Below, in pieces: positions 3,425-55,277 of a stretch of DNA of 64,000 nucleotides. Under the pieces are notes generated by a model, which was not told the origin of the DNA, did not search any database, and saw only the letters and a list, made by a program, of their open reading frames with translations. Each line of letters starts with the position of its first letter. Within the stretch, counting starts at the first letter, position 1. Source of the DNA: Bacillota bacterium (GTDB lineage: Bacteria; Bacillota; UBA994; UBA5500); NCBI GenBank assembly GCA_029781045.1, contig JAKOXL010000024.1, positions 23,210 through 87,209 on the forward strand, given 5' to 3'. The translations under genes were made by a program, and so were the position numbers.

Positions 3425-3640
3425 GCTCCCTTTCCTCCTTCTCGTTATTTCCGATGCAAAGATAGTCTAGTAGAACACTGCCTGAATAGCAACTCTTGCA
3501 CCATGGAGACAAAAATAACATATTATGCAGCATCGAGGGGAGCAAGAAGTGGTATGGAACACTATTTTCTTGCTGTTCATAAGATGGTTTGAAAGGGCTG
3601 CACGGTGGTGCAGAATGAGCAAAGGAGGGAAGAAGGAAGC

Positions 3641-4240
3641 ATGTGGAACAGCACCAAGCTATCAGGCGGTCTACGCGAGATAACGACCAAAGCGACCTGC
3701 GCCAAAGGCCAGAAGCGTTTCCGCCAGATACATAGTATCGTTACCGCCAATCCCGCAGAGCTTGTGCTGGGGAGCAGGATTACCAGCCATAATTACTCGG
3801 CCTGCCCTTTAGCCAACTCCGTTGAGATTAAAGGGTCCTACGATCTGCATATCTGGTACACATACGCAGACGGAACTCTAACTGCTGTGGAAAAGAAGAC
3901 GGTTCGCTATACCGAGCATCTCCCAGTAATCGATTTGGAAGGAGAGCGTCTGCGGAAGGATGAGACTGTAGAGATTACTGTGACGCGGGAGCCGGAAGTA
4001 GCAAACATGCACGTCCGTCGGGGCGCAGTCCAGGTCGAAGTGGATTTGGAGTTCTATGTCGAGATCGTCGGTGAGACTAAGCTTTGGGTAAGGGTCTATG
4101 AACCTCCCTTTGCTGATGATGACAAAAAGGCCAAAGCACTAGAGCTTGATGCTAGTGGCGACTATTTTGATGAAGACGATTTCGACGACGAGGAATACGA
4201 AGATGAATGGGAGGATGAAGACGAGGACTTCGTTCTGTAA
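3641..4240 (+). CDS. cotE: Spore coat morphogenetic protein CotE. True start is the ATG at 3641, not the ORF-track 3605
   Basis: REITTKATCAKGQKRFRQ...VEIKGSYDLHIWYTYADGTLTAVEKKTVRY...EFYVEIVGETKLWVRV followed by an acidic D/E-rich tail closely parallels B. subtilis CotE (EIITKAVVAKGRKF...[24 protein letters not shown]...). AAAGGAGGG RBS 11 nt upstream. Confidence 0.85.
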   Translation: MWNSTKLSGGLREITTKATCAKGQKRFRQIHSIVTANPAELVLGSRITSHNYSACPLANSVEIKGSYDLHIWYTYADGTLTAVEKKTVRYTEHLPVIDLEGERLRKDETVEITVTREPEVANMHVRRGAVQVEVDLEFYVEIVGETKLWVRVYEPPFADDDKKAKALELDASGDYFDEDDFDDEEYEDEWEDEDEDFVL

Positions 4241-4271
4241 TCCCTCCAGCTAGAATAGCGGTTAGTTAATG

Positions 4272-4302
4272 CTCCAGAGGTATCTCTGGAGTATTTTTTT
4301 TG
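4272..4302 (+). terminator. Rho-independent terminator after cotE
   Basis: CTCCAGAG-gtat-CTCTGGAG perfect 8-bp stem followed by a T9 run. Confidence 0.7.
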
Positions 4303-4325
4303 CCTGTCCACAAAAGGCACCGCAA

Positions 4326-5738
4326 ATGCTGACTCATCATATCTTGAAGCAGAACTCCACAGAAACTGGGGGTGCAACAGCGTTGGTCAGGGTCCAACTA
4401 TTTGCGTTGCAGAATCCAGGGGAGGTACATCTCCCTGCCAGTCTTAGTAAGGATTTGCCTAGGGCTACAACTGTTGGCAGTGTTTCCTTTGGTCAAAGAC
4501 AAGCAGAAGCAGTTTTCAAATCCCCCGATAATCATCGCCGTGACAATAGATTGGGGATGGGCGCCGATATAATGCAGGCTTTAGGTCTGCGCCCAGGAAG
4601 CAGGCTGCGGGCAGCATGGGATAGTACCCGCAACCGGCTACGTTTGGGGCCAGTGGTGGCTATTATGGCTTGGCGCTGCCGTTCGTTTCCATCGTTTCAC
4701 CTTTTTGGGCCCGCTACCGACATGGTTCGTACTTTCGTGCGCTTGGTACGAGCCCGTGGCGCAGTAGGTTATGCCTTCTCCCCCAAGGAAATCCATTGGG
4801 AGAGCAATAGTGTGATCGGCTATATTCCGGCTGGGCGAGGATGGCGGAAAGCTCTGATGCCTTTGCCCGACGTTGTCTATGATCGCATTCAAAGCCGGGC
4901 CATTGATGCCAGTAAGCGGGTGCAAACTGCCAAGCAACGACTGATGGCCATGGAGAGCATCCACTATTTTAACCCCTTTTTTCTTGATAAATGGGAAACA
5001 TACGAGGCCCTAGTTCAGGACCCGCAGGCTAAACACTACTTGCCGAGGACAGAGCGACTAACCTCTCTGGACCAACTTGGTCCATGGTTACGAGCATACC
5101 CCACAGTGTTCATCAAACCTGCCAGCGGCTCCTTAGGAATGGGCATCGTTAAGATTAGCCGCATGGCTCGCGGTTACCGTTATCACCGGATTCGCATGGG
5201 TGGTGGCAGCCGTGCCGGGGTCTGTAGTTCTCTACGGAAACTACAAGCTCGACTGCGCGCCATTCTGCCGCGGCGCTCTATGATTATTCAACAGGGGTTG
5301 AACCTAGCGCGTTATGGAGGTCGTCCCTACGATATCCGAGTAATGGTGCAAAAAACGCCGCGGGGTAACTGGGTGTGCACCAACATGATTGCTAGGGTGG
5401 CATCTCCCGGAAGTGCGGTTTCCAACGTGGCTGAGGGAGGCACTATGATTTCGGTACGACGGGCGATAAAAGGGTCCCTAAGGATTAACCCGCGGGTTGC
5501 AACACGACGGATAAGGCGCGGAGCCCGGATAATTGCCCGTGCGGTGGAAACCCAGTTAGGTCAGGAGTTTGGTGAGTTTGGAGTTGATATGGCTCTAGAT
5601 CGGAGAGGAAGGTTATGGTTAATCGAAGTCAATGCCAAACCCGGTCGCCAAAACGACAATCTACCAGGTATTCCTCCTTCCATGCGCCGGATCGCCCGCT
5701 ACGCGGTGGCGCGGGCCAGGTTTAGCGAAAGGGGGTGA
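4326..5738 (+). CDS. YheC/YheD-family ATP-grasp protein, long YheD-like form with an N-terminal extension
   Basis: C-terminal half reads RPYDIRVMVQKTPRGNWVCTNMIARVASPGSAVSNVAEGGT...LWLIEVNAKPGRQ, matching the YheC/D ATP-grasp core (FD[IV]R..QKNG.G.W...IT..NGG...E.N.KPG). The N-terminal ~110 aa (LPASL...LGPVVAIM) is shared with the 8373 paralog. Start moved to the ATG at 4326 because the ORF-track start lies inside the cotE terminator. Confidence 0.7.
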   Translation: MLTHHILKQNSTETGGATALVRVQLFALQNPGEVHLPASLSKDLPRATTVGSVSFGQRQAEAVFKSPDNHRRDNRLGMGADIMQALGLRPGSRLRAAWDSTRNRLRLGPVVAIMAWRCRSFPSFHLFGPATDMVRTFVRLVRARGAVGYAFSPKEIHWESNSVIGYIPAGRGWRKALMPLPDVVYDRIQSRAIDASKRVQTAKQRLMAMESIHYFNPFFLDKWETYEALVQDPQAKHYLPRTERLTSLDQLGPWLRAYPTVFIKPASGSLGMGIVKISRMARGYRYHRIRMGGGSRAGVCSSLRKLQARLRAILPRRSMIIQQGLNLARYGGRPYDIRVMVQKTPRGNWVCTNMIARVASPGSAVSNVAEGGTMISVRRAIKGSLRINPRVATRRIRRGARIIARAVETQLGQEFGEFGVDMALDRRGRLWLIEVNAKPGRQNDNLPGIPPSMRRIARYAVARARFSERG

Positions 5739-7144
5739 GTCGGTTGGCACAGGGTCTAGTCATAATGCCTAATGAGGTAGCAAGTGGCCTGCTATCTGAG
5801 TTATTGCCGGACGTAACAGTTAGCACCACCTATCAGCCTGGAAACTGGAGGTTCATTATACGGTTTGGTGAAGCAAAAGGTAGCGATGATAGTTCCTTTG
5901 TCCTCAATAGAGCAGCAGTGCTGGATACTCCCGACCTGCTCAGTGAATCCCAGGCCCATTGGCGAGCCAGTTCCTTGCGTTTCTTAGCTCCGGGGAGACG
6001 TATAACCTTCTATAAACGCTATCGGGTGCACGTGTTTGATCTGGAGCCCATCTATATGCAGAGGATAGAGATTGGTCGGCGCCGTACCATTGCGATAAAA
6101 CCCAACAGTTCCCAAGAAGCACGGAGGGTAGGAGAGCTGGCAGTGCGGGCCTTCTACACCGCGGGTCTAGACGTGGGGGCAGTAGATATTGGCATCAGCA
6201 GTAGAGGTAGACTGTATCTTATCAATATCTCAGCCTGCCCTCGCATGGGGAGGGCAATCGCCTTAGCCTACGCCAAGCATATACAGGCGTGGATAAAACG
6301 TATGGAGGTCTATTGGACCAGGAGTCTTCTATCGGGACCAAAATGCCCCCAGTATCTGATCGGCGCTGATCCAGAATTTGCACTGCGCGACGCCCGCACG
6401 GGGCGTATGATTTTTGCTTCCGACTATTTCCCTATACAGGGTCTGGTTGGTTGCGATGCGCGCCGTGTTAAACTCGGGCGCTCCGGATACCCGCTAGCTG
6501 AGATTCGCCCTACTCCTACTCAATGTCCCCTAGAACTCTATGAGGGGATCATCCGAGCCTTACGTAGAGCCAACCGTCTGATGCCGAGCCGCTATGTGCA
6601 GTGGCGAGCCGGAACTCTACCTTTTAGTCAGTTGCCAGTTGGTGGGCATATCCACTTCAGTATGTTACCCACAGGTCCCTTGCTCCGGGCCCTAGATAAT
6701 TATCTGGCCGTTATATTCCTGCTGCTCGAGAACCCAGCTGCCGCCCGCAGCCGCCGGAAAAAGTATGGTTGGCTTGGGGATTACCGTTTGAAAACCCATG
6801 GTGGCTTTGAGTATCGAGTGGTCCCCAGTTGGTTGGTAAGCCCAGTCTTTGCTCGAGGCGCCCTTTGTTTGGCTAAGGTAATAGGTTGTGACTGGCCTTA
6901 TTTACGTTTTGATTTATTCATCCGACCGGAGGCCAAAATGGCCTTCCGACAAGCGGATCAAGACTATTTTCGTGCTCAGCTACCAACCCTCTTGGCGGCC
7001 ATCCGCTCGCTACCCACTTATGAAACCTATGCCACAGAGATAGAAGCACTTCTGAGTTTTATTGAGCAGAACAAGCGCTGGAAAACATCCGATGATATTC
7101 GGCGTAGTTGGCGCCTGGTTAAAAACCGCAGGCGTCGTGCTTGA
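5735..7144 (+). CDS. Fusion protein: a truncated ATP-grasp-like N-terminal module joined to a C-terminal glutamine-synthetase-like (GCS2/amidoligase-type) domain
   Basis: N-terminal part RYRVHVFDLEP...AIKPNSS...AGLDVGAVDIGISSRGRLYLINISACP resembles the C-terminal subdomain of the neighbouring ATP-grasp proteins. The C-terminal part carries GADPEF...(~70 aa)...VGGHIHFS...GGFEYRV, reminiscent of the G-x-E-x-E ... G-x-H-x-H pattern of YbdK/GCS2-type carboxylate-amine ligases. GTGA start/stop overlap with the upstream gene. Confidence 0.55.
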   Translation: MSRLAQGLVIMPNEVASGLLSELLPDVTVSTTYQPGNWRFIIRFGEAKGSDDSSFVLNRAAVLDTPDLLSESQAHWRASSLRFLAPGRRITFYKRYRVHVFDLEPIYMQRIEIGRRRTIAIKPNSSQEARRVGELAVRAFYTAGLDVGAVDIGISSRGRLYLINISACPRMGRAIALAYAKHIQAWIKRMEVYWTRSLLSGPKCPQYLIGADPEFALRDARTGRMIFASDYFPIQGLVGCDARRVKLGRSGYPLAEIRPTPTQCPLELYEGIIRALRRANRLMPSRYVQWRAGTLPFSQLPVGGHIHFSMLPTGPLLRALDNYLAVIFLLLENPAAARSRRKKYGWLGDYRLKTHGGFEYRVVPSWLVSPVFARGALCLAKVIGCDWPYLRFDLFIRPEAKMAFRQADQDYFRAQLPTLLAAIRSLPTYETYATEIEALLSFIEQNKRWKTSDDIRRSWRLVKNRRRRA

Positions 7145-7261
7145 GCACAGGCTATTTATGAAAGCCATATATTGTACTACAGCAGGCTACTAGCCTAGGC
7201 CAACGAGAGGCTCTGCAATATTTGTTGACAATCCCTTGAAAGAGAAAGAGATGAATAAGGG

Positions 7262-8365
7262 GTGGATAATGTGGCATCAAGCCGCGTATTGGTGGGAGTA
7301 ATGACTGCCCGCAGGCCGGGCGCGCGCCCTTTTGTGGAGGGTAGGTTCCTACGTGAACTGTCGTATGCGGCACGTCAAGTCGGAATGCGGTTGATTGTGT
7401 TTAGTCCTCTAGATATTAACTGGGGACAACGTCGAGTCCTTGGTTTCACCTATCGTAGGGGGGTTGGTTGGCAAGGCCGTTACTATCCGGTGCCTCGGAT
7501 AGTATATGATCGCATATTCCCTAGCCGAGGAATGTGGGGACTGTACTTTGGGCAGGTAGCCCGAATGCGTCGTGCTTTCCGCGTTACCATGATGGGGCGT
7601 GGCTTGCACGGCAAGTGGCAAATGTATAGGATTGTACGTCGTTACGAAGACCTACGCCCCCACCTGCCCGAGACCAGATTGGGGAGTGTTCGAAACCTAG
7701 CAATAATGCTGAACCGCTTCGACCTGGTCTATGTTAAACCCGTCTTTGGCAGTGGAGGCAAGGGAATAGCCCGCATTCGACGCTGGCGTGGTGGCTATAT
7801 AGTGGACCGTGTTGGCCGTCCACGTCTCCACGCCAGCTCTCTGGCGTCTGTGGTTGCGGCTCTTGGTGGGATGAGTCGTCGTTATGTGGTTCAGCAAGGC
7901 CTAAGGCTCAACTACTTACGAGGAAGTACTTTTGATATCAGGGCCATAGTTCAGAAGAACGGGGAAGGTCAGTGGCAGGTTTCCGGCAAGGCAGTACGGA
8001 TGAGCCGCCCGGGACGGATTACATCCAATTTGCACACCGGGGGGCGAGCCTATTCTGTGCCTGCCCTTCTACAACGCTGCTTTCCCGACAGGGCAGAGGA
8101 ACTGGAGCAAGAACTGGATAAACTTGCCATTCGTGTAGCGGAAGTCATGAATAGGCATGCTGGTCCTCTTTGCGATCTCGGCCTAGACCTAGGCATAGAT
8201 GCAAATGGCAAGATATGGATAATAGAAGTCAACTCAAAGCCTGGTCGAAAGGTCTTTCTGCAAATGGGTGACCGGGAGGGGCGTCAACGGGTGGTACGTA
8301 CATTGATGGAGTATGCCAAGTACCTGAGTGAGCAACGCAATGAGCAACGGAGCCGGGGGAGGTGA
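7262..8365 (+). CDS. YheC/YheD-family ATP-grasp protein, short YheC-like form. Start may be the GTG at 7271
   Basis: TFDIRAIVQKNGEGQWQVSGKAVRMSRPGRITSNLHTGGRA...IWIIEVNSKPGRK. 367 aa, no N-terminal extension. Confidence 0.75.
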   Translation: MDNVASSRVLVGVMTARRPGARPFVEGRFLRELSYAARQVGMRLIVFSPLDINWGQRRVLGFTYRRGVGWQGRYYPVPRIVYDRIFPSRGMWGLYFGQVARMRRAFRVTMMGRGLHGKWQMYRIVRRYEDLRPHLPETRLGSVRNLAIMLNRFDLVYVKPVFGSGGKGIARIRRWRGGYIVDRVGRPRLHASSLASVVAALGGMSRRYVVQQGLRLNYLRGSTFDIRAIVQKNGEGQWQVSGKAVRMSRPGRITSNLHTGGRAYSVPALLQRCFPDRAEELEQELDKLAIRVAEVMNRHAGPLCDLGLDLGIDANGKIWIIEVNSKPGRKVFLQMGDREGRQRVVRTLMEYAKYLSEQRNEQRSRGR

Positions 8366-8372
8366 ACAGTTG

Positions 8373-9704
8373 ATGGGCGAGACAAATCTGGCTAGGGTTG
8401 TCAGTCGTAGAGCATCATCTACCTGTACCTTACCCCGCAGCCTCCTAGAAAGAACCGGATGGCGGACAGGGGAGATCGTCACTTTTTCCTTCGGCAGTGC
8501 TAGTCGTCGCATGCGGGTACAGGGTGGTGAGGAGGATGTTTGGCAGCTGCCAGCGTCCCTTTTGCGGTCCTTGGGGATGGTGCCTCGGCGGTGGTCTTAC
8601 CACCTGGATACAGAAAGAAGATGGGTAAGGTTCGGTCCCCTCATCGGTATTTTGACCACATGGCAGACTACTCCCTATTTCCGCTCAGTAATGCGGGCTG
8701 CCGCCAGTCGTGGGATGATGGCGGTGGTTTTCCGTCCCCAAAACCTGCATCCGGGAGGACGTCAACTGGAGGGATGGGGCCTAGTAAACGGGATAGTCAG
8801 GCCGGTAAGAGTGCCTTGGCCCGATGTTGTATACAACCGCATTCCTAATCGAGGAGACGAGCTTCTACGGAGCACCAGAGTATGTAAACGCAGGTTAGAA
8901 CAGGCGAGAGTACCCGTATTCAACCGACGGTTCTTTCATAAATGGCGCATTCATCGTCTTTTAAGGCGAGATGAAACAGCCTTACGCTATTTACCGGAGA
9001 CGCAGCCGATGCTTAACTTGCAACAAGTTAGGCATTTCCTTAACCGCTATCCCGCGGCTTACCTGAAACCCAATGGCGGTAGTAAAGGGCACGGCATTGT
9101 GCGGGTTTTGCGGCTCCGAGGCCAGGGCTACCAGATTTCTTTCCGGAAGGGAAACCGCAATTATCAACACACTGTGGGAAGTTGGCCGCAGGCGGCGTCA
9201 ATAATCAGACGGGCTATGGCGCCTCGCAGTTATTTGATACAAGAAGGAATCGCCTTAGCCAATTATCGAGGTCGTCCCTTCGATGTAAGAGTAACGTTAT
9301 ACAAGAACGGTCAAGGGGAATGGGTGCCTTGTGGTCCAGCTGCCAAGATCGCTGGTTATGGAAGTATAACGACCCACGTGGCTAACGGAGGTCGTGTGAT
9401 TCCGCTTTCTCGCGCTCTGCGCTATGCTTTTGGCAATCAGGCGGAGGAGATTAGGACGCGAATTGAAGCAGCAGCAGTGGATCTAGCCCTAGCTGTAGAA
9501 CGCGTGACATCTCTCCAACTGGGTGAGATTGGCCTTGATATCGGGTTAACCGCGCAGGGACGTGTGGCCATGTTTGAAGCCAATAGTAAGCCCGGGCGGG
9601 CAGTCTTCGCAGCGGCTTGGAATCGGCAGGATCGTTGGAAGTCGTTATTACATCTCTGCGACTATGCGGCCAGTTTGGCTGGTTTTGATAGGGGTGTGAG
9701 TTGA
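8373..9704 (+). CDS. YheC/YheD-family ATP-grasp protein, long YheD-like form. Start re-set to the ATG at 8373 after GGGGGAGGTGA
   Basis: RPFDVRVTLYKNGQGEWVPCGPAAKIAGYGSITTHVANGGRV...AMFEANSKPGR. N-terminal LPRSLLERTGW...LPASLLRSLG...GPLIGIL matches the extension on the 4326 protein. Confidence 0.7.
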   Translation: MGETNLARVVSRRASSTCTLPRSLLERTGWRTGEIVTFSFGSASRRMRVQGGEEDVWQLPASLLRSLGMVPRRWSYHLDTERRWVRFGPLIGILTTWQTTPYFRSVMRAAASRGMMAVVFRPQNLHPGGRQLEGWGLVNGIVRPVRVPWPDVVYNRIPNRGDELLRSTRVCKRRLEQARVPVFNRRFFHKWRIHRLLRRDETALRYLPETQPMLNLQQVRHFLNRYPAAYLKPNGGSKGHGIVRVLRLRGQGYQISFRKGNRNYQHTVGSWPQAASIIRRAMAPRSYLIQEGIALANYRGRPFDVRVTLYKNGQGEWVPCGPAAKIAGYGSITTHVANGGRVIPLSRALRYAFGNQAEEIRTRIEAAAVDLALAVERVTSLQLGEIGLDIGLTAQGRVAMFEANSKPGRAVFAAAWNRQDRWKSLLHLCDYAASLAGFDRGVS

Positions 9705-10777
9705 TGCAGAGACCGATTCTCGGAATTCTAACGGCAGGAAAGGGATCAGTTCCGGGGAACCGCGAAATGTTCCGCTTTGTGCAGCAGGCCTGTCGGGAGG
9801 CAGGTCTGACTGCCTACGTTTTTACACCGGCCCAAGTGAACTGGTCACAGCGGATTGTATATGGCTATCGGTATGTCGGTGGTCGCTGGCGACCTGGCCG
9901 ATTTCCGCTTCCGCAGGTAGTCTACAACCGGGTGCCAAATCGGCAATTGGAAGAGAGTGCTGAAGTAAGACAACTGAAACGGCGGCTGCAGGCTAGGGGC
10001 ATTCCCTATTACAATGCCACATACTTGAACAAATACGATCTTTATCGACTGTTGGTAACTGAATCTGCTATTAAGCCTCACTTGCCGTGGACGAAGTTGG
10101 TGCGGAGTCGAGCCGACATTTACGATGCTTTGCAGCGATTTGGCCGTATCTACCTGAAGCCGAGGCACGCTTTTGCCGGCAAAGGTATCATGATGGTCAG
10201 CCTCAAGGGCAATGCTTGGGCCTTGCGTTACCGCCAAAATAATAGCAATAGGGTGATACAAGGCAGCAAACTATCCGAGCTCTGGCCGCGATTGGATCAG
10301 CGCATGGGGCGCCAAAGTTATATCGTGCAGCAAGCTATTTCCCTAGCCCAGTATCGCGGCCGCAACTTTGATGTTAGGTTACTGGCGCAGAAAAATGGTC
10401 AAGGCAGGTGGCAGGTCACCGGCATGGGGATGAGGGTGGCTAGTAAAGGTGGGATCACCACCCACGTGCCCAACGGAGGATTTATCGCCCCCGCCGAAGA
10501 GGTACTGGCCGATGTATTTGGTGCCGAAGCGCCGCAAGTACGCCAGAAGGTGGAGCAGCTGGCACTACAGATTGCACCCATCATTGAAAGGGGCTATAGA
10601 GGCCTTTTTGGCGAGATGTCAATGGATATTGGCCTAGATACAACCGGTCATCCATGGTTCTTTGAGGCCAATGCTAAACCCATGCGCTTTGACGAACAGG
10701 GCATTAGGCGCAAGGGTTTACAAACACTGACAGCTTATGTGCAGTACCTTGCTAAAAGGGCTGGCACCGGGGGGTAA
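9701..10777 (+). CDS. YheC/YheD-family ATP-grasp protein, short YheC-like form
   Basis: RNFDVRLLAQKNGQGRWQVTGMGMRVASKGGITTHVPNGGFI...WFFEANAKPMR. ATGA start/stop overlap with the upstream gene. Confidence 0.75.
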   Translation: MMQRPILGILTAGKGSVPGNREMFRFVQQACREAGLTAYVFTPAQVNWSQRIVYGYRYVGGRWRPGRFPLPQVVYNRVPNRQLEESAEVRQLKRRLQARGIPYYNATYLNKYDLYRLLVTESAIKPHLPWTKLVRSRADIYDALQRFGRIYLKPRHAFAGKGIMMVSLKGNAWALRYRQNNSNRVIQGSKLSELWPRLDQRMGRQSYIVQQAISLAQYRGRNFDVRLLAQKNGQGRWQVTGMGMRVASKGGITTHVPNGGFIAPAEEVLADVFGAEAPQVRQKVEQLALQIAPIIERGYRGLFGEMSMDIGLDTTGHPWFFEANAKPMRFDEQGIRRKGLQTLTAYVQYLAKRAGTGG

Positions 10778-11350: not shown

Positions 11351-12601
11351 ATGAGCACTTGGCGTGGTAGGGACATTGCGAACGCTTTTGGCATCAGCGA
11401 TGAGGGCATGGTGCTGAACGGGGTCTTTTGCCTAAACACTCCCTTCGGGTTAGCTACTCCGTCAGTGTATCGGGGAGATCTGGACTTCTTGCAGTGGCTA
11501 GGAACTCAAGTTCCCCAAATTAACACGCGGCTGGGGCGGTTAAGCCTGAGTCGGTTACTAACAGCACCCTCGGGTCGGTTTTATGCGGAAGTGGGTGGAG
11601 AAACGGTCTTATTATCCGTATTAGAAACGGGGCCCAGTTGCGATCCTCGCAACGCCTTTGAGTTGTTCACGGTGGCTGCTGGCCTAGCCCATGTGCATCA
11701 ACAGGAGGTGGGGGTAGCGGGGGCAGCACCCGACTGGCTGAAGTATTATCAAATGCAAAGGGACAAGTTGGCACAGCTAACGCCTACCAATTTGCCGAAA
11801 CGTGCTTTGATTGCGTGGGCCAACTTGGAAGAAACGTGGCGCTTATGTGCAGAAGAGGCCATTAACCTGCTGAGCCAACTGAGAGACATGGCTCGGGAGC
11901 TTTGCCTGGTTTTAGGCTTGCAGTCCTTTTCTGATTTTGTCTATCTGGCTGATAGGCACCAAGTTCATTATAACCTGGTGGTCAGGTGCCATCTGGACTC
12001 ACCTGCAGTAGATCTAGCTCGCTTGGTGGCGTCTGCGGGGAGTGAGGGCAGAATCGCGCATAACATGCTTTTATCTTACCAGCGGGTAAGAAGGCTGACT
12101 AAAGGCGAATGCCAAGAGCTCTTTGCCCATCTGTGGTTCCCACACGAGGTTGATTTGGCCATCTTTTCTGATCCTACGGTTACTCCGTTACGCTTGCAAC
12201 GGGCTTGCCATCTATTGCAGGAGAAAATAGGCATGATCTCAGAGTTGGAAGATATTTTGCTGCCTACGGCCGAGGAGCCCAGTGGGCAGAGGGAAATAAG
12301 GGAGGTATTAACTGTGAACGAAAAGAAAGTGGAACCGGCACAGATTGATGCTGTGGAACTCCAATTGGAGCCAGTTCTCGATGAACCTCTGGCCGCGGCG
12401 GAAACGGCAGAGGAAGCCATGCCCGCCGTCCCAGCTGAGCAAGAGGCAAAGCGGGAAGAAGTGCAGATTAACATGATTGCGGCTACGACTAGGCGGGCCA
12501 GTGTGTGGGGACCTTTCCCAGCGCCTTTGAAAAAGGTAGAAACCAAAATTGAATCCAAAACTGAAGACCCACAGGAAGGAGAGAAAACGAGTCAGGAGTA
12601 A
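11351..12601 (+). CDS. CotS-family (bacterial spore kinase / pseudokinase-like) spore coat protein with an E/P/A-rich C-terminal tail
   Basis: FSDFVYLADRHQVHYNLVVRCHLDSPAVDLARLV and AHLWFPHEVDLAIF parallel B. subtilis CotS FCFQDFTLARL...HSITYDLPSRDLRILL and WIDLAFPHLFCAI. The last ~100 aa are low-complexity acidic and proline-rich. Confidence 0.5.
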   Translation: MSTWRGRDIANAFGISDEGMVLNGVFCLNTPFGLATPSVYRGDLDFLQWLGTQVPQINTRLGRLSLSRLLTAPSGRFYAEVGGETVLLSVLETGPSCDPRNAFELFTVAAGLAHVHQQEVGVAGAAPDWLKYYQMQRDKLAQLTPTNLPKRALIAWANLEETWRLCAEEAINLLSQLRDMARELCLVLGLQSFSDFVYLADRHQVHYNLVVRCHLDSPAVDLARLVASAGSEGRIAHNMLLSYQRVRRLTKGECQELFAHLWFPHEVDLAIFSDPTVTPLRLQRACHLLQEKIGMISELEDILLPTAEEPSGQREIREVLTVNEKKVEPAQIDAVELQLEPVLDEPLAAAETAEEAMPAVPAEQEAKREEVQINMIAATTRRASVWGPFPAPLKKVETKIESKTEDPQEGEKTSQE

Positions 12602-40146: not shown

Positions 40147-40809
40147 ATGCAATATGTCTATCGCGAGGAGTTGAGAGATCGGCTACAGAGGCTGCGCACT
40201 TTGACAGAAGCCACCTTAGCGGGTCTACGAAACGACTTAGACCAGTCTCTTTCCGCGAGTATTAGTGAGTTTTCTACCTACGATAATCATCCGGCCGATG
40301 TGGCAACTGAGACCTATGAACGTAGCAAGGATCTGGGGTTACAGAAGGACCAAGAGCGTCTCTTGGAGCAGATCGATTTGGCGTTGCAGAGAATGGAGCA
40401 AGGGACCTATGGCTGGTGCCAGAAATGCGGACGCCCTATACCTGAGGAGCGTCTACTGGCTTTGCCCTATGTTTCCGAATGTCTCCCTTGTGCGGAGGCG
40501 GAGCAAAAGCGAATTGCTTCTCGCTGCAAAGAGGAACTGGATGCTAATCGGTTGTTGCGGCAAAGCTTTGACGAAAGGGTCGGCTTTGATGGGGAGGATG
40601 CTTGGCAGGCCGTGGCCCGTTACGGGTCGTCGAATACTCCAGGCGATTTTCGCCAAGTTGAAGATTACAATGATACATACCTAGACCATGATGAACCCAT
40701 CGGAATAGTAGCAGAAGAAGAAGCCTTACCCGCCTCCTTCGATCGCAGCACGGATCAGTACATTAAAGGGGGGCGGCACGGGCGAGAGAAGAACCCCCTT
40801 GAGCCGTGA
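40147..40809 (+). CDS. DksA/TraR-family C4 zinc-finger protein (YteA/YocK-like)
   Basis: CQKCGRPIPEERLLALPYVSECLPC is the C4 zinc finger typical of DksA/TraR. Confidence 0.6.
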   Translation: MQYVYREELRDRLQRLRTLTEATLAGLRNDLDQSLSASISEFSTYDNHPADVATETYERSKDLGLQKDQERLLEQIDLALQRMEQGTYGWCQKCGRPIPEERLLALPYVSECLPCAEAEQKRIASRCKEELDANRLLRQSFDERVGFDGEDAWQAVARYGSSNTPGDFRQVEDYNDTYLDHDEPIGIVAEEEALPASFDRSTDQYIKGGRHGREKNPLEP

Positions 40810-40916
40810 TACTTTGCGTGTTAACATTATCTAAGGCTGTCCATTATCAGGACAGCCTTTTCCCATCCACGATGGATGATATCCCTGCTGGCGAAAGTGA
40901 GGAGGTTAGAGCAGCA

Positions 40917-41357
40917 ATGACATATGTTCTATTAGCATTGGCGATTTGTGCCCTTGATCGTCTACTGAAAGCTTGGGTCGTTAGGGCTCTCCCCTTGTGG
41001 GCTAGCCGCCCCCTATTGGGCAACTGGTTGTATCTAACCCACGTTAGGAATACAGGGGCTGCCTTTGGTCTCTTTGGGGGTAATGCATTGCTGTTGGCAA
41101 TTATAAGTATGGCATTGTTTGTTGCCTTGTTTTTCTGGCGGGAACATCTACGCTCCTTGGGTACTTGGGGATATTTGGCATTAGCCCTTATTTTAGGCGG
41201 GGCCCTCGGGAACATGTATGATCGTCTAGCTTACGGTTATGTGATTGACTTTATAGACCTCCGCATCTGGCCCGTTTTTAACTTGGCGGATAGCGCTGTA
41301 GTGGTTGGAGCATTGTTGTTGGTAGTCATTTTGTGGCGACAGGAGTTTGCAGGCTAG
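40917..41357 (+). CDS. lspA: Lipoprotein signal peptidase II
   Basis: VRNTGAAFGLF and FNLADSAVVVGA motifs. Start at the ATG at 40917 after GAGGAGG. Confidence 0.85.
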   Translation: MTYVLLALAICALDRLLKAWVVRALPLWASRPLLGNWLYLTHVRNTGAAFGLFGGNALLLAIISMALFVALFFWREHLRSLGTWGYLALALILGGALGNMYDRLAYGYVIDFIDLRIWPVFNLADSAVVVGALLLVVILWRQEFAG

Positions 41358-47312: not shown

Positions 47313-47399
47313 TAGATTTCGCTTTGCCCTTGCTCGTACAGCTCAGTTGGTGTATATTTATTAAAACGTCGGCACAGGTAAAATGCTAGGACGAGGGCT

Positions 47400-47620
47400 A
47401 GTAGACCCACACCTCTGGGTTGCAGAGAGAGGCATTCATAGGCTGCAAGATGCCTCCCTAAGTGGGGTTGAACCTACCCTAAGAGCTACCTAGGCGCCAA
47501 ACTTAGGTCGGCCAGCCACCGTTAGAAGGCCCGAGTGGGACATCTATGTCCAATCAAGGTGGTACCGCGGAAGATCAGGCTCTTTCGCCCTTCATATGGG
47601 GTGAAAGAGCTTTTGCTTTT
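47400..47620 (+). promoter_or_regulatory. T-box riboswitch leader preceding proB, with a candidate proline specifier
   Basis: Conserved T-box sequence AAGGTGGTACCGCGG (47556-47570). AGAGAGAG stem-I element at 47424. Candidate specifier GAA-CCU-A at 47470-47476. Terminator GGCTCTTTCGCCC...GGGGTGAAAGAGC then TTTTGCTTTT (47578-47620). Confidence 0.6.
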
Positions 47621-53503: not shown

Positions 53504-53684
53504 TTGCTCAACCTCCTTCAGGAAAAGTTTAATTTATCTCATTATCTTCTACACCCATCTTCCTATTCCTACTTACCACAAGAATAAGTTATTTATGAAA
53601 TAGCTACTTTCAGAACTGACTTGTAGTGATCAGTAGGGTCTAGTACTATCGTATGTACAAAAACAGTGAGCAGGAGGGAGATTT

Positions 53685-54254
53685 TTGCAGAGGATTAAAA
53701 GGCAAGCCGTGGTTTTGCTCTGCGCGTTACTTTTCATAATGGCTTTCGGGTGCCAAGACAGGGGTCCAGAAGAAGAGCAGCCCCAGTTCTTGCTGGTGCC
53801 GGAAGGTCGCTTTCTGCCTATTGCTGAAAGACCTAAGATCATACCCTTTGATGGAATCGATCTCTCTACTGGTGAGCAAGTTGCCCTTACAGTGGCTGGG
53901 GAAGGGCGAGTCCGTATGCTCTCCTTCTTTTCTTCTGGCTGACAAGCCTGCATTATAGAGTTGCTGCAGTTGCAGCCGGAACTAGCTGCTTTGAAAGAAC
54001 AAGGCGTTGATCTATATGTAATAGCAATTGGTAGCGAGAAAGACTTGTCCTGGTTCTTTAACGAAGTTCAGCTGGAAGCGACTATTATCCATGACACCGA
54101 TTTTTCCATCTTCCAGAAGTACTCCGTTGTTGCTTTGCCTTCCCTGTTGTTGATCGACAAGGAGGGGAGAGTGGCCTTCAACTTGGTGGGCTGGGGTTTA
54201 GAGGCTTTCACTGAGCAGATACAGCCTCTACTTACGGATTTGCTGGCTGAGTAG
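53685..54254 (+). CDS. TlpA/ResA-family thioredoxin-like lipoprotein with an in-frame UGA at 53940-53942 in the redox motif (G-U-Q-A-C); a candidate selenoprotein
   Basis: ORFs 53685-53942 and 53961-54254 are in the same frame, separated only by TGA. Read through, they give lipoprotein signal (LLCALLFIMAFGC)...IPFDGIDLSTGEQVALTVAGEGRVRMLSFFSSG-U-QACIIELLQLQPELAALKEQGVDLYVIAIG...VVALPSLLLIDKEGRV, a complete TlpA-like thioredoxin fold with TGA exactly at the first Cys of CxxC. Confidence 0.6.
53959..53983 (+). promoter_or_regulatory. Candidate bacterial SECIS hairpin 17 nt downstream of the UGA
   Basis: AGUU-GCUGC-[AGUU]-GCAGC-(CGG bulge)-AACU interrupted stem-loop with G and U in the apical tetraloop. 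Confidence 0.4.
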
Positions 54255-54269
54255 AGAAGGGGGATTGTT

Positions 54270-54404
54270 ATGAGGGAGAGGGCGGGGAAGGCCCTGTTGT
54301 TAGTTGGCTTGGCCACAATGATCTTGGGACTGTGGCGAGAGGAGGCGCTTTTGGTGCTAGAGAAAGCCATTATTATCTGTTTACAGTGTATTGGTATTGG
54401 CTAG
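54270..54404 (+). CDS. Unannotated 44-aa ORF: a single-TM peptide with a C-terminal CxxC
   Basis: MRERAGKALLLVGLATMILGLWREEALLVLEKAIIICLQCIGIG. AAGGGGGA RBS 6 nt upstream. Its stop abuts the GTG start of the next gene. Confidence 0.3.
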   Translation: MRERAGKALLLVGLATMILGLWREEALLVLEKAIIICLQCIGIG

Positions 54405-55277
54405 GTGTGGGATGCCATGTACAGACGTAGATTAAGTCAAATTCTGGCAACGGTTGCTAGTAATAGTTATCTGCCTGGATGGTTAAAAGGTAGGATATAT
54501 CAGGGAAAACTGAAGATGATATGCGTTCCTTTCCTCAACTGCTATTCCTGTCCTGGCGCTATTGGTTCCTGCCCGGTTGGGGCCTTTCAGTCACTGGCGG
54601 CCGGGTATGGCCGTACTATTTCGCTCTACATCAGTGGCTTTCTGCTAGCCGTGGGCGCACTCGGAGGGCGTTTTGTCTGTGGCTGGCTCTGTCCTTTTGG
54701 TCTGGTACAAGAGCTGTGCTACGGCGGGAAGGGTAGGCTGCGTCAGCTGCCACCTCTCGTGGAGAAACTGAAGTTTTTGGTGTTGGGGCTGACTGTGGCT
54801 TTACCCTTTGTCTGGCGTGATCCGACCGGGCTGGCGGAACCCTACTTTTGTAAATTTGCTTGCCCTGCTGGCACTTTCCAAGCCGGCCTACCGCTGGTGT
54901 CTCTAAGCCCCGCACTACAGGGTCTAGTGGGCTGGCTGTTCAGTTGGAAGCTGGCGGTGTTGCTCTTGGTGCTAATGGCGGCCCATTACTACTGGCGCCC
55001 CTTTTGTCGCGTTCTGTGCCCTCTGGGGGCCTTCTATGGACTGCTTAATCGCTGGAGCATCTGGCAGCTTCGCTTAAATCGCCATCGCTGCACCGACTGT
55101 GGAGCCTGTGCCCGTCAGTGCCAAGCTTGTTTAAACCCCAGGCTTGAATCTAATAGTAGCGCTTGTATCCGTTGTCTAGAGTGTGTCAGTGTCTGCCCCA
55201 CGCGGGCTCTGAGCTTCGCTAATCACACAGTGAACAGTCAAAGATTTACTTCTAAAGGAAACACAGTAGGGAAATAG
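54405..55277 (+). CDS. NapH/MauN/FixG-like membrane polyferredoxin (two CxxxCP[FL]G membrane motifs plus two 4Fe-4S CxxCxxCxxxC motifs)
   Basis: CGWLCPFG and CRVLCPLG in TM regions; CTDCGACARQC and CIRCLECVSVCP ferredoxin motifs near the C-terminus; a CYSCPGAIGSCP N-terminal motif. Confidence 0.55.
   Translation: MWDAMYRRRLSQILATVASNSYLPGWLKGRIYQGKLKMICVPFLNCYSCPGAIGSCPVGAFQSLAAGYGRTISLYISGFLLAVGALGGRFVCGWLCPFGLVQELCYGGKGRLRQLPPLVEKLKFLVLGLTVALPFVWRDPTGLAEPYFCKFACPAGTFQAGLPLVSLSPALQGLVGWLFSWKLAVLLLVLMAAHYYWRPFCRVLCPLGAFYGLLNRWSIWQLRLNRHRCTDCGACARQCQACLNPRLESNSSACIRCLECVSVCPTRALSFANHTVNSQRFTSKGNTVGK

What the first reader, a model, noticed from the sequence alone, without database searches (positions are those of the whole stretch)
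53685..54254. Candidate UxxC selenoprotein: TlpA/ResA-like lipoprotein with UGA at the first redox cysteine
The ORF track splits this gene at a TGA (53940-53942), but both halves are in the same frame and together give a complete thioredoxin-fold thiol-disulfide oxidoreductase. The N-terminal half has a lipoprotein signal and the F.l.d..G..v.L....G..v.l.FF.s pre-motif strand. The C-terminal half carries the IAIG and VALPSLLLIDKEGRV (cis-Pro loop region) elements. The TGA falls precisely where the first Cys of the CxxC motif should be, giving G-U-Q-A-C. An interrupted hairpin with a G/U-containing apical loop starts 17 nt downstream (53959-53983), as expected for a bacterial SECIS. A selenocysteine-containing extracytoplasmic TlpA-type redox lipoprotein would be a notable addition to this organism's selenoproteome.
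Basis: seen in the sequence. Interest (0 to 1): 0.85.

Follow-up and report, generated by a model that had tools for sequence, protein, structure and literature searches.

The report
Selenocysteine TlpA-like redox lipoprotein gene
The apparent stop codon inside this gene is almost certainly read as selenocysteine, giving a cell-surface thiol-disulfide reductase of an already known type that public annotation wrongly splits into two short genes.

Summary
Window 53685-54254 (+) is one 189-codon gene with an in-frame TGA (53940-53942). The TGA aligns with the first Cys of the ResA/TlpA CxxC motif, giving U-Q-A-C. Eleven further homologs, down to about 28% identity, all carry TGA at this codon, and the frame stays open and under purifying selection on both sides. 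Full-length Cys forms also exist. An invariant hairpin, GCUGC-AGUU-GCAGC (53963-53976), starts 21 nt after the TGA. It meets every published bacterial SECIS criterion, suppresses synonymous change, shows two compensatory pair changes and is absent from the Cys forms. TGA is an ordinary stop elsewhere in the window. The window holds no selA/B/C/D, so the Sec machinery of this organism could not be tested, but one distant family member has SelB on the same contig. The gene is linked, in varying order, to a small CD1871A-family CXXC protein and a NapH-like membrane ferredoxin. This suggests, but does not prove, a dedicated electron supply. UxxC thioredoxin-fold selenoproteins, including TlpA-like ones, are already catalogued, so this is a new member of a known kind. 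Public annotation splits it into 67-aa and 94-aa fragments.

The parts
53672..53677 (+). Shine-Dalgarno AGGAGG, 7 nt upstream of the TTG start
   Evidence: Read directly from the sequence.
53685..54254 (+). Complete selenoprotein CDS: 189 codons plus TAG stop, a TlpA/ResA-like thioredoxin-fold thiol-disulfide oxidoreductase
   Evidence: Single frame; Pfam AhpC-TSA and Redoxin above gathering score; ResA, DsbE and Etrx structures are the best PDB matches.
53685..53753 (+). Signal peptide with lipobox-like A-F-G-C. Cys23 (53751-53753) is the predicted lipidated residue
   Evidence: Basic n-region, hydrophobic stretch, then G/A/S-C. This is conserved in all Sec and Cys forms seen. Lgt (2185-2931) and signal peptidase II (40806-41354) are encoded in the window. 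No dedicated predictor was run.
53940..53942 (+). Sec codon UGA (residue 86)
   Evidence: TGA at the homologous codon in 12 distinct sequences; aligns with the first Cys of ResA CEPC and of the Cys-form homologs.
53940..53951 (+). Redox motif U-Q-A-C (resolving Cys89 at 53949-53951)
   Evidence: UxxC is kept in all Sec forms.
53959..53983 (+). SECIS element: lower stem 53959-53962 with 53980-53983, CGG bulge, upper stem 53963-53967 with 53972-53976, apical loop AGUU 53968-53971
   Evidence: Local MFE fold. The upper stem and loop are invariant or wobble/compensatory in 12 sequences, 100% paired, with 2 compensatory pairs. Synonymous change is suppressed. The element is absent from Cys forms and unique in the window. 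It meets the bSECIS criteria of PMC13188914. The lower stem is only partly conserved (72% of cells paired).
54138..54140 (+). cis-Pro loop proline (P152)
   Evidence: Invariant in the family alignment; aligned to the ResA loop proline.
54270..54404 (+). CD1871A-family small membrane protein with a C-terminal CxxC-IGIG; linked gene
   Evidence: NCBIfam NF040920 1.3e-13, above cutoff. Present directly before the NapH-like gene in every locus where that stretch was read: L001-L004 and L008-L013.
54405..55277 (+). NapH/MauN-like membrane polyferredoxin; linked gene. The public protein starts at ATG 54417
   Evidence: NCBIfam napH_ 5.4e-18, below the curated cutoff. Pfam Fer4_5 in homologs. Adjacent to the TlpA-like gene in the window and in L001-L004, L006, L007, L009-L013 and L015, in either order.

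Best explanation
This is a genuine selenoprotein gene. The mRNA is translated through UGA 53940-53942 by Sec-tRNA(Sec) and SelB, recruited by a small hairpin inside the coding sequence: GCUGC-AGUU-GCAGC, with its loop 25 nt after the UGA. The hairpin also forces the peptide motif L-Q-L-Q-P. The product is a 189-residue, probably lipid-anchored, extracytoplasmic thioredoxin-fold protein of the TlpA/ResA type with a U86-x-x-C89 active site. By inference, the selenolate attacks a substrate disulfide or other oxidised sulfur species, Cys89 resolves the mixed selenenylsulfide, and the oxidised Se-S form is then re-reduced. The reductant probably comes from the two genes that always travel with it, a CD1871A-family CXXC mini-protein and a NapH-like 4Fe-4S membrane protein. 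That pair would play the role CcdA/DsbD plays for ResA/TlpA. Shown here: the conserved TGA, the coding constraint, the SECIS-like element, the Sec/Cys pairing, the fold family and the gene linkage. Inferred: actual Sec insertion, lipidation, substrate and electron route.
For: TGA at the same codon in 12 distinct homologs, from 69% down to about 28% identity. After the TGA, 103 to 106 codons remain open in each of the five closest orthologs. Window versus L001 gives 29 identical, 37 synonymous-only and 37 non-synonymous codons. Codons +6 to +11 are nucleotide-identical in five orthologs: 5 of 6 invariant degenerate residues at +6 to +12 use a single codon, against 6 of 49 elsewhere (Fisher p = 7e-4). 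Hairpin: 72 of 72 cells paired, two compensatory double changes, 5/500 shuffles reach the score, and slid registers give 10-68% paired. All bSECIS model criteria are met. Cys-form genes lack the hairpin. Cys homologs align Cys to U. TGA terminates 13 of 47 long ORFs in the window, so there is no code reassignment. A distant Sec-type member has SelB on the same contig. The triad is conserved with both Sec and Cys forms and in different gene orders.
Against: No selA, selB, selC or selD was found in the 64-kb window, and the rest of the genome could not be searched. The hairpin alone is not thermodynamically exceptional, and most of its pairs never vary, so covariation rests on two pairs. An alternative hairpin (53948-53952 with 53965-53969) is also 98% paired. 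There is no Rfam SECIS match. The electron-supply role of the NapH-like/CD1871A pair rests only on gene linkage, and nothing on CD1871A was found in the paper library.
Confidence: 0.9

Rival explanations
1. The gene is a pseudogene, or two independent short genes, and the TGA is a true stop.
For: Gene callers and the deposited annotation treat it this way: 67-aa P0002 plus 94-aa P0214 on the 284-kb contig. A TTG or ATG lies just after the TGA in many members.
Against: The split would cut a thioredoxin fold between strand 1 and the active-site helix and remove the nucleophile. The same TGA is kept in 12 diverged lineages with purifying selection on both halves. Cys-containing full-length homologs exist.
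Confidence: 0.02
2. The UGA is read through, but not as selenocysteine. Near-cognate Trp, Cys or Arg is inserted, or the lineage uses an alternative code.
For: Sec machinery was not demonstrated for this genome. One database homolog (P0147) shows W at this position.
Against: TGA ends 13 of 47 long ORFs in the window, and no other conserved gene there carries an in-frame TGA. The conserved SECIS-like hairpin at the canonical distance has no purpose under simple read-through. SelB lies beside a family member. The position is the catalytic nucleophile, where Sec/Cys exchange is the rule (PMC1794560). P0147's W is most simply explained by a gene caller using a TGA=Trp table, though this was not verified.
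Confidence: 0.05
3. It is a selenoprotein, but a peroxidase (peroxiredoxin-like) rather than a thiol-disulfide reductase.
For: The best Pfam hit is AhpC-TSA. NCBI names the Cys forms 'peroxiredoxin family protein'. A weak NCBIfam hit to thiol peroxidase BCP (6e-4).
Against: The motif is UxxC/CxxC at the helix N-terminus, as in ResA/TlpA, not the PxxxT/SxxC(U) context: residue -7 is Leu, not Pro. Catalogued Sec-peroxiredoxins are TxxU (PMC13188914 Table 1). The best solved relatives are ResA, DsbE/CcmG, Etrx and StoA.
Confidence: 0.12
4. Sequencing or assembly error: the true codon is TGC or TGT.
For: None beyond the prior possibility. The window comes from an uncultured Bacillota assembly.
Against: Independent assemblies from different samples and sources (NCBI, ENA, JGI, Logan) all read TGA.
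Confidence: 0.01

Closest known systems
Prx-like thiol:disulfide oxidoreductase selenoproteins (PF00578, UxxC/UxxU; Kryukov & Gladyshev family, listed in PMC13188914 Table 1 and PMC1794560, including a 'distant' form in the Clostridial Syntrophomonas wolfei)
   Same: PF00578 domain, Sec as the first residue of UxxC, Cys-containing homologs, occurrence in anaerobes including Clostridia.
   Different: Orthology to the reference sequence (WP_010940744.1) could not be tested. No dedicated NCBIfam selenoprotein model matches this protein. No search of the literature for the linkage to NapH-like and CD1871A genes was made. The only related search, for the term 'CD1871A', found no paper.
[quoted passage not shown]
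   Same: TlpA-type thioredoxin fold with Sec in the redox motif.
   Different: Those were described from marine and other metagenomes. Membership of the same subfamily was not tested. The motif here is U-x-x-C (UQAC, URPC, UGPC), not UGC.
Bacillus subtilis ResA and StoA; Bradyrhizobium TlpA; DsbE/CcmG
   Same: Best solved-structure matches. Membrane-anchored extracytoplasmic thioredoxin fold, with the CxxC position and cis-Pro loop aligned.
   Different: Sec replaces the nucleophilic Cys. Scores are far below the ResA and StoA curated cutoffs (45.8 vs 170; 34.1 vs 210). No CcdA/DsbD or cytochrome c maturation genes lie nearby.
Streptococcus pneumoniae Etrx1/Etrx2 surface thioredoxin lipoproteins (PDB 2yp6, 4hqz)
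   Same: Lipoprotein-type surface thioredoxin-family proteins recovered as PDB matches. By my own knowledge they reduce surface MsrAB2. In L008 an MsrB-domain gene sits next to the CD1871A/NapH-like pair.
   Different: They are Cys proteins fed by CcdA. No functional link to Msr was shown here.
NapH/MauN family membrane ferredoxins (partner gene)
   Same: Fer4_5 domain, CX3CP motifs and two C-terminal 4Fe-4S motifs.
   Different: Below the NapH curated cutoffs (65 vs 213 bits). No nap genes nearby. Always preceded by a CD1871A mini-protein.

Membership tests
Bacterial selenoprotein (SelB/SECIS-decoded UGA) | In-frame UGA with conserved coding sequence on both sides | tested here: met
Bacterial selenoprotein (SelB/SECIS-decoded UGA) | UGA aligns with a conserved (catalytic) Cys in homologs (Sec/Cys pair) | tested here: met
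   ResA CEPC; P0135, P0172, P0184; L012 and L013.
Bacterial selenoprotein (SelB/SECIS-decoded UGA) | [quoted passage not shown] | tested here: met
   12 distinct sequences. 27 of 78 representative hits are fragments that start just after the UGA.
Bacterial selenoprotein (SelB/SECIS-decoded UGA) | bSECIS model: loop 3-9 nt, upper stem 4-16 bp, G in the first two loop positions, 16-37 nt from UGA to loop, MFE <= -7.5 kcal/mol (PMC13188914 Fig. 2A) | tested here: met
   Loop AGUU (4 nt), 5-bp upper stem, G at loop position 2 followed by U, 25 nt spacing, -9.0 kcal/mol. Conserved, with 2 compensatory pairs.
Bacterial selenoprotein (SelB/SECIS-decoded UGA) | selA, selB, selC and selD in the same genome | not testable with these tools
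   None in the 64-kb window. SelB is on the same contig as the distant member in L014.
Bacterial selenoprotein (SelB/SECIS-decoded UGA) | Selenium demonstrated in the protein | not testable with these tools
   Needs an experiment.
TlpA/ResA-like thioredoxin-fold thiol-disulfide oxidoreductase | Thioredoxin-fold domain (AhpC-TSA/Redoxin) above the curated threshold | tested here: met
   49.2 bits vs 26; 29.8 bits vs 26.6.
TlpA/ResA-like thioredoxin-fold thiol-disulfide oxidoreductase | C/U-x-x-C motif and cis-Pro loop in register with solved members | tested here: met
   Alignment to 1st9 ResA; P152 invariant.
TlpA/ResA-like thioredoxin-fold thiol-disulfide oxidoreductase | Extracytoplasmic location (signal anchor or lipoprotein) | tested here: inconclusive
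   A signal-peptide-like N-terminus with a conserved G/A/S-C lipobox in all members, read by eye. Lgt and LspA are in the window. No predictor was run.
ResA / StoA sensu stricto (NCBIfam NF002854, NF041202) | Score above the curated family cutoff | tested here: not met
   45.8 vs 170 and 34.1 vs 210 bits. It is therefore ResA-like in fold, not a ResA or StoA ortholog.
Prx-like thiol:disulfide oxidoreductase selenoprotein family | PF00578 domain with a UxxC motif | tested here: met
   family definition from PMC13188914 Table 1.
Prx-like thiol:disulfide oxidoreductase selenoprotein family | Orthology with the reference members (e.g. WP_010940744.1) | not tested
   The reference sequence could not be retrieved with these tools.
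Sec-peroxiredoxin (PF00578, PxxxTxxU) | Peroxidatic residue in a PxxxT/SxxU context | tested here: not met
   The sequence is L-S-F-F-S-S-G-U-Q-A-C, with no Pro at -7, and Sec is the first residue of UxxC.

The most novel reading that the evidence does not exclude
The conserved triad (Sec- or Cys-TlpA-like lipoprotein, CD1871A CXXC mini-protein, NapH-like 4Fe-4S membrane protein) is an undescribed transmembrane reductant pathway of anaerobic Bacillota. It would deliver electrons from cytoplasmic iron-sulfur clusters to an extracytoplasmic selenol/thiol reductase, functionally replacing CcdA/DsbD.
Probability: 0.3. Interest if true: 0.6.

Novelty: new member of a known kind. Interest (0 to 1): 0.4.

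Why it matters
The finding corrects a systematic annotation error. This gene and dozens of related clusters are deposited as two short ORFs or as 90-100 aa 'redoxin' fragments. It adds an extracytoplasmic selenoprotein to an uncultured spore-forming Bacillota lineage, which implies that the lineage uses selenium. It also gives a compact, highly conserved SECIS (GCUGC-AGUU-GCAGC, which imposes the peptide LQLQP) that can serve as a search handle for the family. The constant linkage to a NapH-like ferredoxin and a CD1871A mini-protein offers a testable hypothesis for how surface thiol/selenol reductases are recharged in anaerobes where no CcdA/DsbD is nearby.

Tried and rejected
- A word-indexed homolog search with the U-to-C full-length protein found nothing. 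The exhaustive representative search and profile search were needed instead.
- The MFE fold of the 61 nt after the UGA did not single out the hairpin and was no better than shuffles.
- RNAalifold on five sequences suggested extra outer pairs (7-12 with 60-66 and 17-19 with 52-54). These disappeared with nine sequences and were dropped.
- The lower stem 53959-53962 with 53980-53983 is only 72% paired across homologs, so only its innermost pair is claimed as conserved.
- The alternative hairpin 53948-53952 with 53965-53969 stays paired but shows no compensatory change, and it does not explain the invariance of 53970-53977. It is kept as a minor alternative.
- Rfam has no matching SECIS family, even at E <= 10.
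- The other in-frame TGA sites in the window are adjacent same-frame genes or non-coding frames, not selenoprotein candidates.
- The same-frame junction between the CD1871A and NapH-like ORFs is a TAG stop, so it is unrelated to Sec.
- The promoter and terminator scan gave nothing above chance.
- The look-up of the Ammonifex Cys form (P0172) found no contig on record.

Full report
**What is in the sequence.** On the + strand, the ORFs 53685..53942 and 53961..54254 are in one frame, separated by a single TGA at 53940-53942. An AGGAGG lies 7 nt before the TTG start. Read-through gives 189 residues. These comprise a basic, then hydrophobic N-terminus ending in A-F-G-C23, the strand RVRMLSFFSSG, then U86-Q-A-C89, and the remainder of a thioredoxin fold including VVALP152SLLLIDKEGRV. 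With U written as C, Pfam gives AhpC-TSA (6.3e-13, 49.2 bits against a cutoff of 26) and Redoxin (29.8 against 26.6). NCBIfam gives ResA, StoA and DsbE-type hits, all well below their curated cutoffs. The best solved relatives are B. subtilis ResA structures (3.7e-8), followed by DsbE/CcmG, pneumococcal Etrx proteins and StoA. In the ResA alignment the TGA position falls on the first Cys of C-E-P-C and P152 on the cis-Pro loop.

**Orthologs keep the TGA.** A scan of species-representative genomes found one relative (L001, a Bacillota MAG, 57% identity) with TGA at the same codon and a gapless 190-codon alignment. A metagenome scan added L002, L003 and L004 (67, 54 and 48% identity), all with TGA. 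These five loci are fully syntenic, and the neighbouring genes are 71-91% identical, so they are true orthologs within one clade. Following the neighbouring NapH-like gene and the hits of an exhaustive protein search brought in more distant members: L007, L009, L010 (a Desulforudis MAG), L011, L014, L015 and L016. Every one has TGA followed by x-x-C. In total there are 12 distinct sequences, the most distant about 28-29% identical to the window protein over the C-terminal part.

**The sequence after the TGA is translated.** Between the window and L001, the 103 codons after the TGA comprise 29 identical, 37 synonymous-only and 37 non-synonymous codons. Upstream of the TGA the figures are 23, 20 and 42. 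In each of the five closest orthologs the frame runs 103-106 codons further, to a TAG or TAA. That is not how a pseudogene or an untranslated tail evolves.

**A conserved SECIS-like element.** Nucleotide identity peaks at 87% in the 45 nt after the TGA. Across the five close orthologs, codons +6 to +11 are nucleotide-identical. Among invariant degenerate residues, 5 of 6 at +6 to +12 use a single codon, against 6 of 49 elsewhere (Fisher p = 7e-4). The conserved stretch is GCUGC-AGUU-GCAGC (53963-53976).

- RNAalifold on nine sequences keeps exactly this 5-bp hairpin.
- On twelve sequences all 72 cells are paired. Pair 25-36 is C-G in ten, U-G in L009 and U-A in L014. The closing pair 23-41 is U-A in eleven and C-G in L010. 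Only 5 of 500 column shuffles reach the observed values, and slid registers give 10-68% paired.
- Against the published bacterial SECIS model (loop 3-9 nt, upper stem 4-16 bp, G in the first two loop positions followed by G or U, 16-37 nt from UGA to loop, MFE <= -7.5 kcal/mol; PMC13188914 Fig. 2A), the element has a 4-nt loop A-G-U-U, a 5-bp stem, 25 nt spacing and -9.0 kcal/mol.
- The two Cys-form genes whose DNA I hold (L012, L013) have no such hairpin at the equivalent place (-1.5 and -4.6 kcal/mol, different structures).
- The motif occurs once in the window.

The hairpin also explains why the peptide LQLQP is kept in Sec forms and drifts in Cys forms to LRLQP, LIALRD or VMDLGQ.

Several caveats apply. 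The fold of a single sequence is not exceptional. Most stem pairs never vary. The lower stem is only partly conserved. A mutually exclusive hairpin, 53948-53952 with 53965-53969, is also nearly always paired, though without compensatory change. Rfam has no matching family.

**Sec/Cys pairs and family size.** Full-length homologs with Cys at the U position exist:

- P0135 (46% identity, RVRMLSFFSTG-C-PSC).
- P0172 (Ammonifex thiophilus).
- P0212, which is L013 (Desulfothermobacter acidiphilus).
- P0184.
- The Oceanirhabdus seepicola gene in L012.

In the exhaustive search, 27 of 78 representative hits (clusters at 50% identity) are 90-107 aa proteins whose first residues align to positions 2-11 after the U. 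These are C-terminal fragments called from the TTG or ATG inside the hairpin. Four of them were checked at the DNA level and are TGA genes. The Sec form is therefore widespread in Clostridia-type Bacillota and systematically mis-called. The window gene itself is deposited as a 67-aa ORF and a 94-aa ORF on a 284,363-nt contig.

**Rival readings.**

- TGA ends 13 of 47 long ORFs in the window, and no other conserved gene has an internal TGA. This rules out a reassigned code.
- Independent assemblies from NCBI, ENA, JGI and Logan agree on TGA, which rules out sequencing error.
- A true stop would delete the nucleophile and split the fold.
- Non-Sec read-through would not need a conserved hairpin at the SECIS position.

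**Sec machinery.** The window contains no tRNA, and none of its ORFs matches SelA, SelB or SelD. It holds the dcw cell-wall cluster, sporulation genes (CotE, SpoIIGA, two sigma-factor genes next to SpoIIGA, SpoIIR), proline, pyrimidine and pyruvate metabolism genes, and Lgt and LspA. The caps on genome and metagenome scans prevented a search of the rest of the genome, so this criterion is untested for this organism. In L014, a distant Sec-type member lies about 2.5 kb from the end of a SelB gene (PF25461, PF09106, PF09107) on the same contig. This shows that at least one carrier of the family has the dedicated elongation factor.

**Context and likely mechanism.** The gene is followed after 15 nt by a 44-residue CD1871A-family protein (NF040920, 1.3e-13). 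That protein has an N-terminal basic segment, one hydrophobic helix and a C-terminal C-L-Q-C-I-G-I-G. Directly after it comes a NapH/MauN-like membrane protein with CX3CP motifs and two C-terminal 4Fe-4S motifs. A CD1871A-type ORF directly precedes the NapH-like gene in every locus where I read that stretch: L001-L004 and L008-L013. The TlpA-like gene is next to the NapH-like gene in the window and in L001-L004, L006, L007, L009-L013 and L015. It lies upstream in some and downstream in others, and occurs there as either the Sec or the Cys form. In L007 the wider neighbourhood is rearranged but the cassette is kept. L008 lacks the TlpA-like gene and has an MsrB-domain gene beside the pair. Linkage that survives rearrangement argues for a functional unit.

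I infer the following. The protein is exported and lipidated at Cys23. Sec86 attacks an oxidised substrate outside the membrane, and Cys89 resolves the intermediate. The Se-S form is then re-reduced with electrons passed by the NapH-like/CD1871A pair, by analogy with CcdA/DsbD feeding ResA/TlpA. No CcdA/DsbD gene is in the window. The substrate is unknown, and none of this step is shown. Nothing on CD1871A was found in the paper library.

**Comparison with what is known.** Thioredoxin-fold UxxC proteins are the commonest type of bacterial selenoprotein. [quoted passage not shown] This gene fits that kind. I could not test whether it belongs to one of those exact subfamilies, because the reference sequences are not retrievable here. 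No dedicated NCBIfam selenoprotein model matches it. It is not a ResA or StoA ortholog (cutoffs not met) and not a TxxU peroxiredoxin.

**Verdict.** The gene is a real, correctly interpreted selenoprotein gene (confidence about 0.9, limited mainly by the untested Sec machinery). It is a new member of a known kind. Its added value lies in the annotation fix, the compact family-wide SECIS and the conserved three-gene neighbourhood. Interest is 0.4.

Noticed in passing
window 54270-55277; L001-L004, L008-L013: A roughly 45-aa CD1871A-family protein ending in C-[LE]-[QE]-C-[IM]-G-[IL]-G directly precedes a NapH-like 4Fe-4S membrane protein in every locus where that stretch was read. The pair has more than 7,700 homologs of the NapH-like member, and no paper in the library mentions CD1871A.
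   Followed up: partly
L008 1661-3870: One NapH-like/CD1871A pair has no TlpA-like gene, but has a divergently transcribed 346-aa protein with a C-terminal MsrB (SelR) domain. This hints that methionine-sulfoxide repair could be a target of the system.
   Followed up: no
L014 1-237 and 2752-3291: A SelB gene ends about 2.5 kb upstream of a distant Sec-type member of the family on the same contig.
   Followed up: partly
protein P0147: A database homolog reads FFSVG-W-PSC, with Trp exactly at the Sec position. This is probably a TGA translated with a TGA=Trp table by the source's gene caller. The DNA was not examined.
   Followed up: no
window 53739-53942 and 53970-54254 (public proteins P0002, P0214): The deposited annotation of this very gene on a 284,363-nt contig is two ORFs, of 67 aa and 94 aa. 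A related fragment is named 'redoxin domain-containing protein' (P0218).
   Followed up: yes
window 47379-47595: A T-box leader (94.9 bits, just above gathering) lies immediately upstream of an amino-acid-kinase (proB-like) gene, followed by proA and proC. It is presumably a proline-responsive T-box controlling the proline biosynthesis operon.
   Followed up: no
window 3605-10777: CotE is followed by four YheC/D-type ATP-grasp genes and a phiEco32-like COOH-NH2 ligase gene in a row, an unusually dense block of amide-bond-forming enzymes next to a spore-coat gene.
   Followed up: no
L005 4001-4459: A distant (29%) TlpA-like homolog has Ser in place of the first redox Cys (WSAD-S-RDC), so it would be a single-Cys variant.
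   Followed up: no
window 11351-12601: A 416-aa ORF with no Pfam match at E <= 1e-6.
   Followed up: no
window 54402-54417: The CD1871A ORF and the NapH-like ORF are in the same frame, separated only by a TAG. The NapH-like start is ambiguous: GTG at 54405 or ATG at 54417, and the public protein uses 54417.
   Followed up: yes
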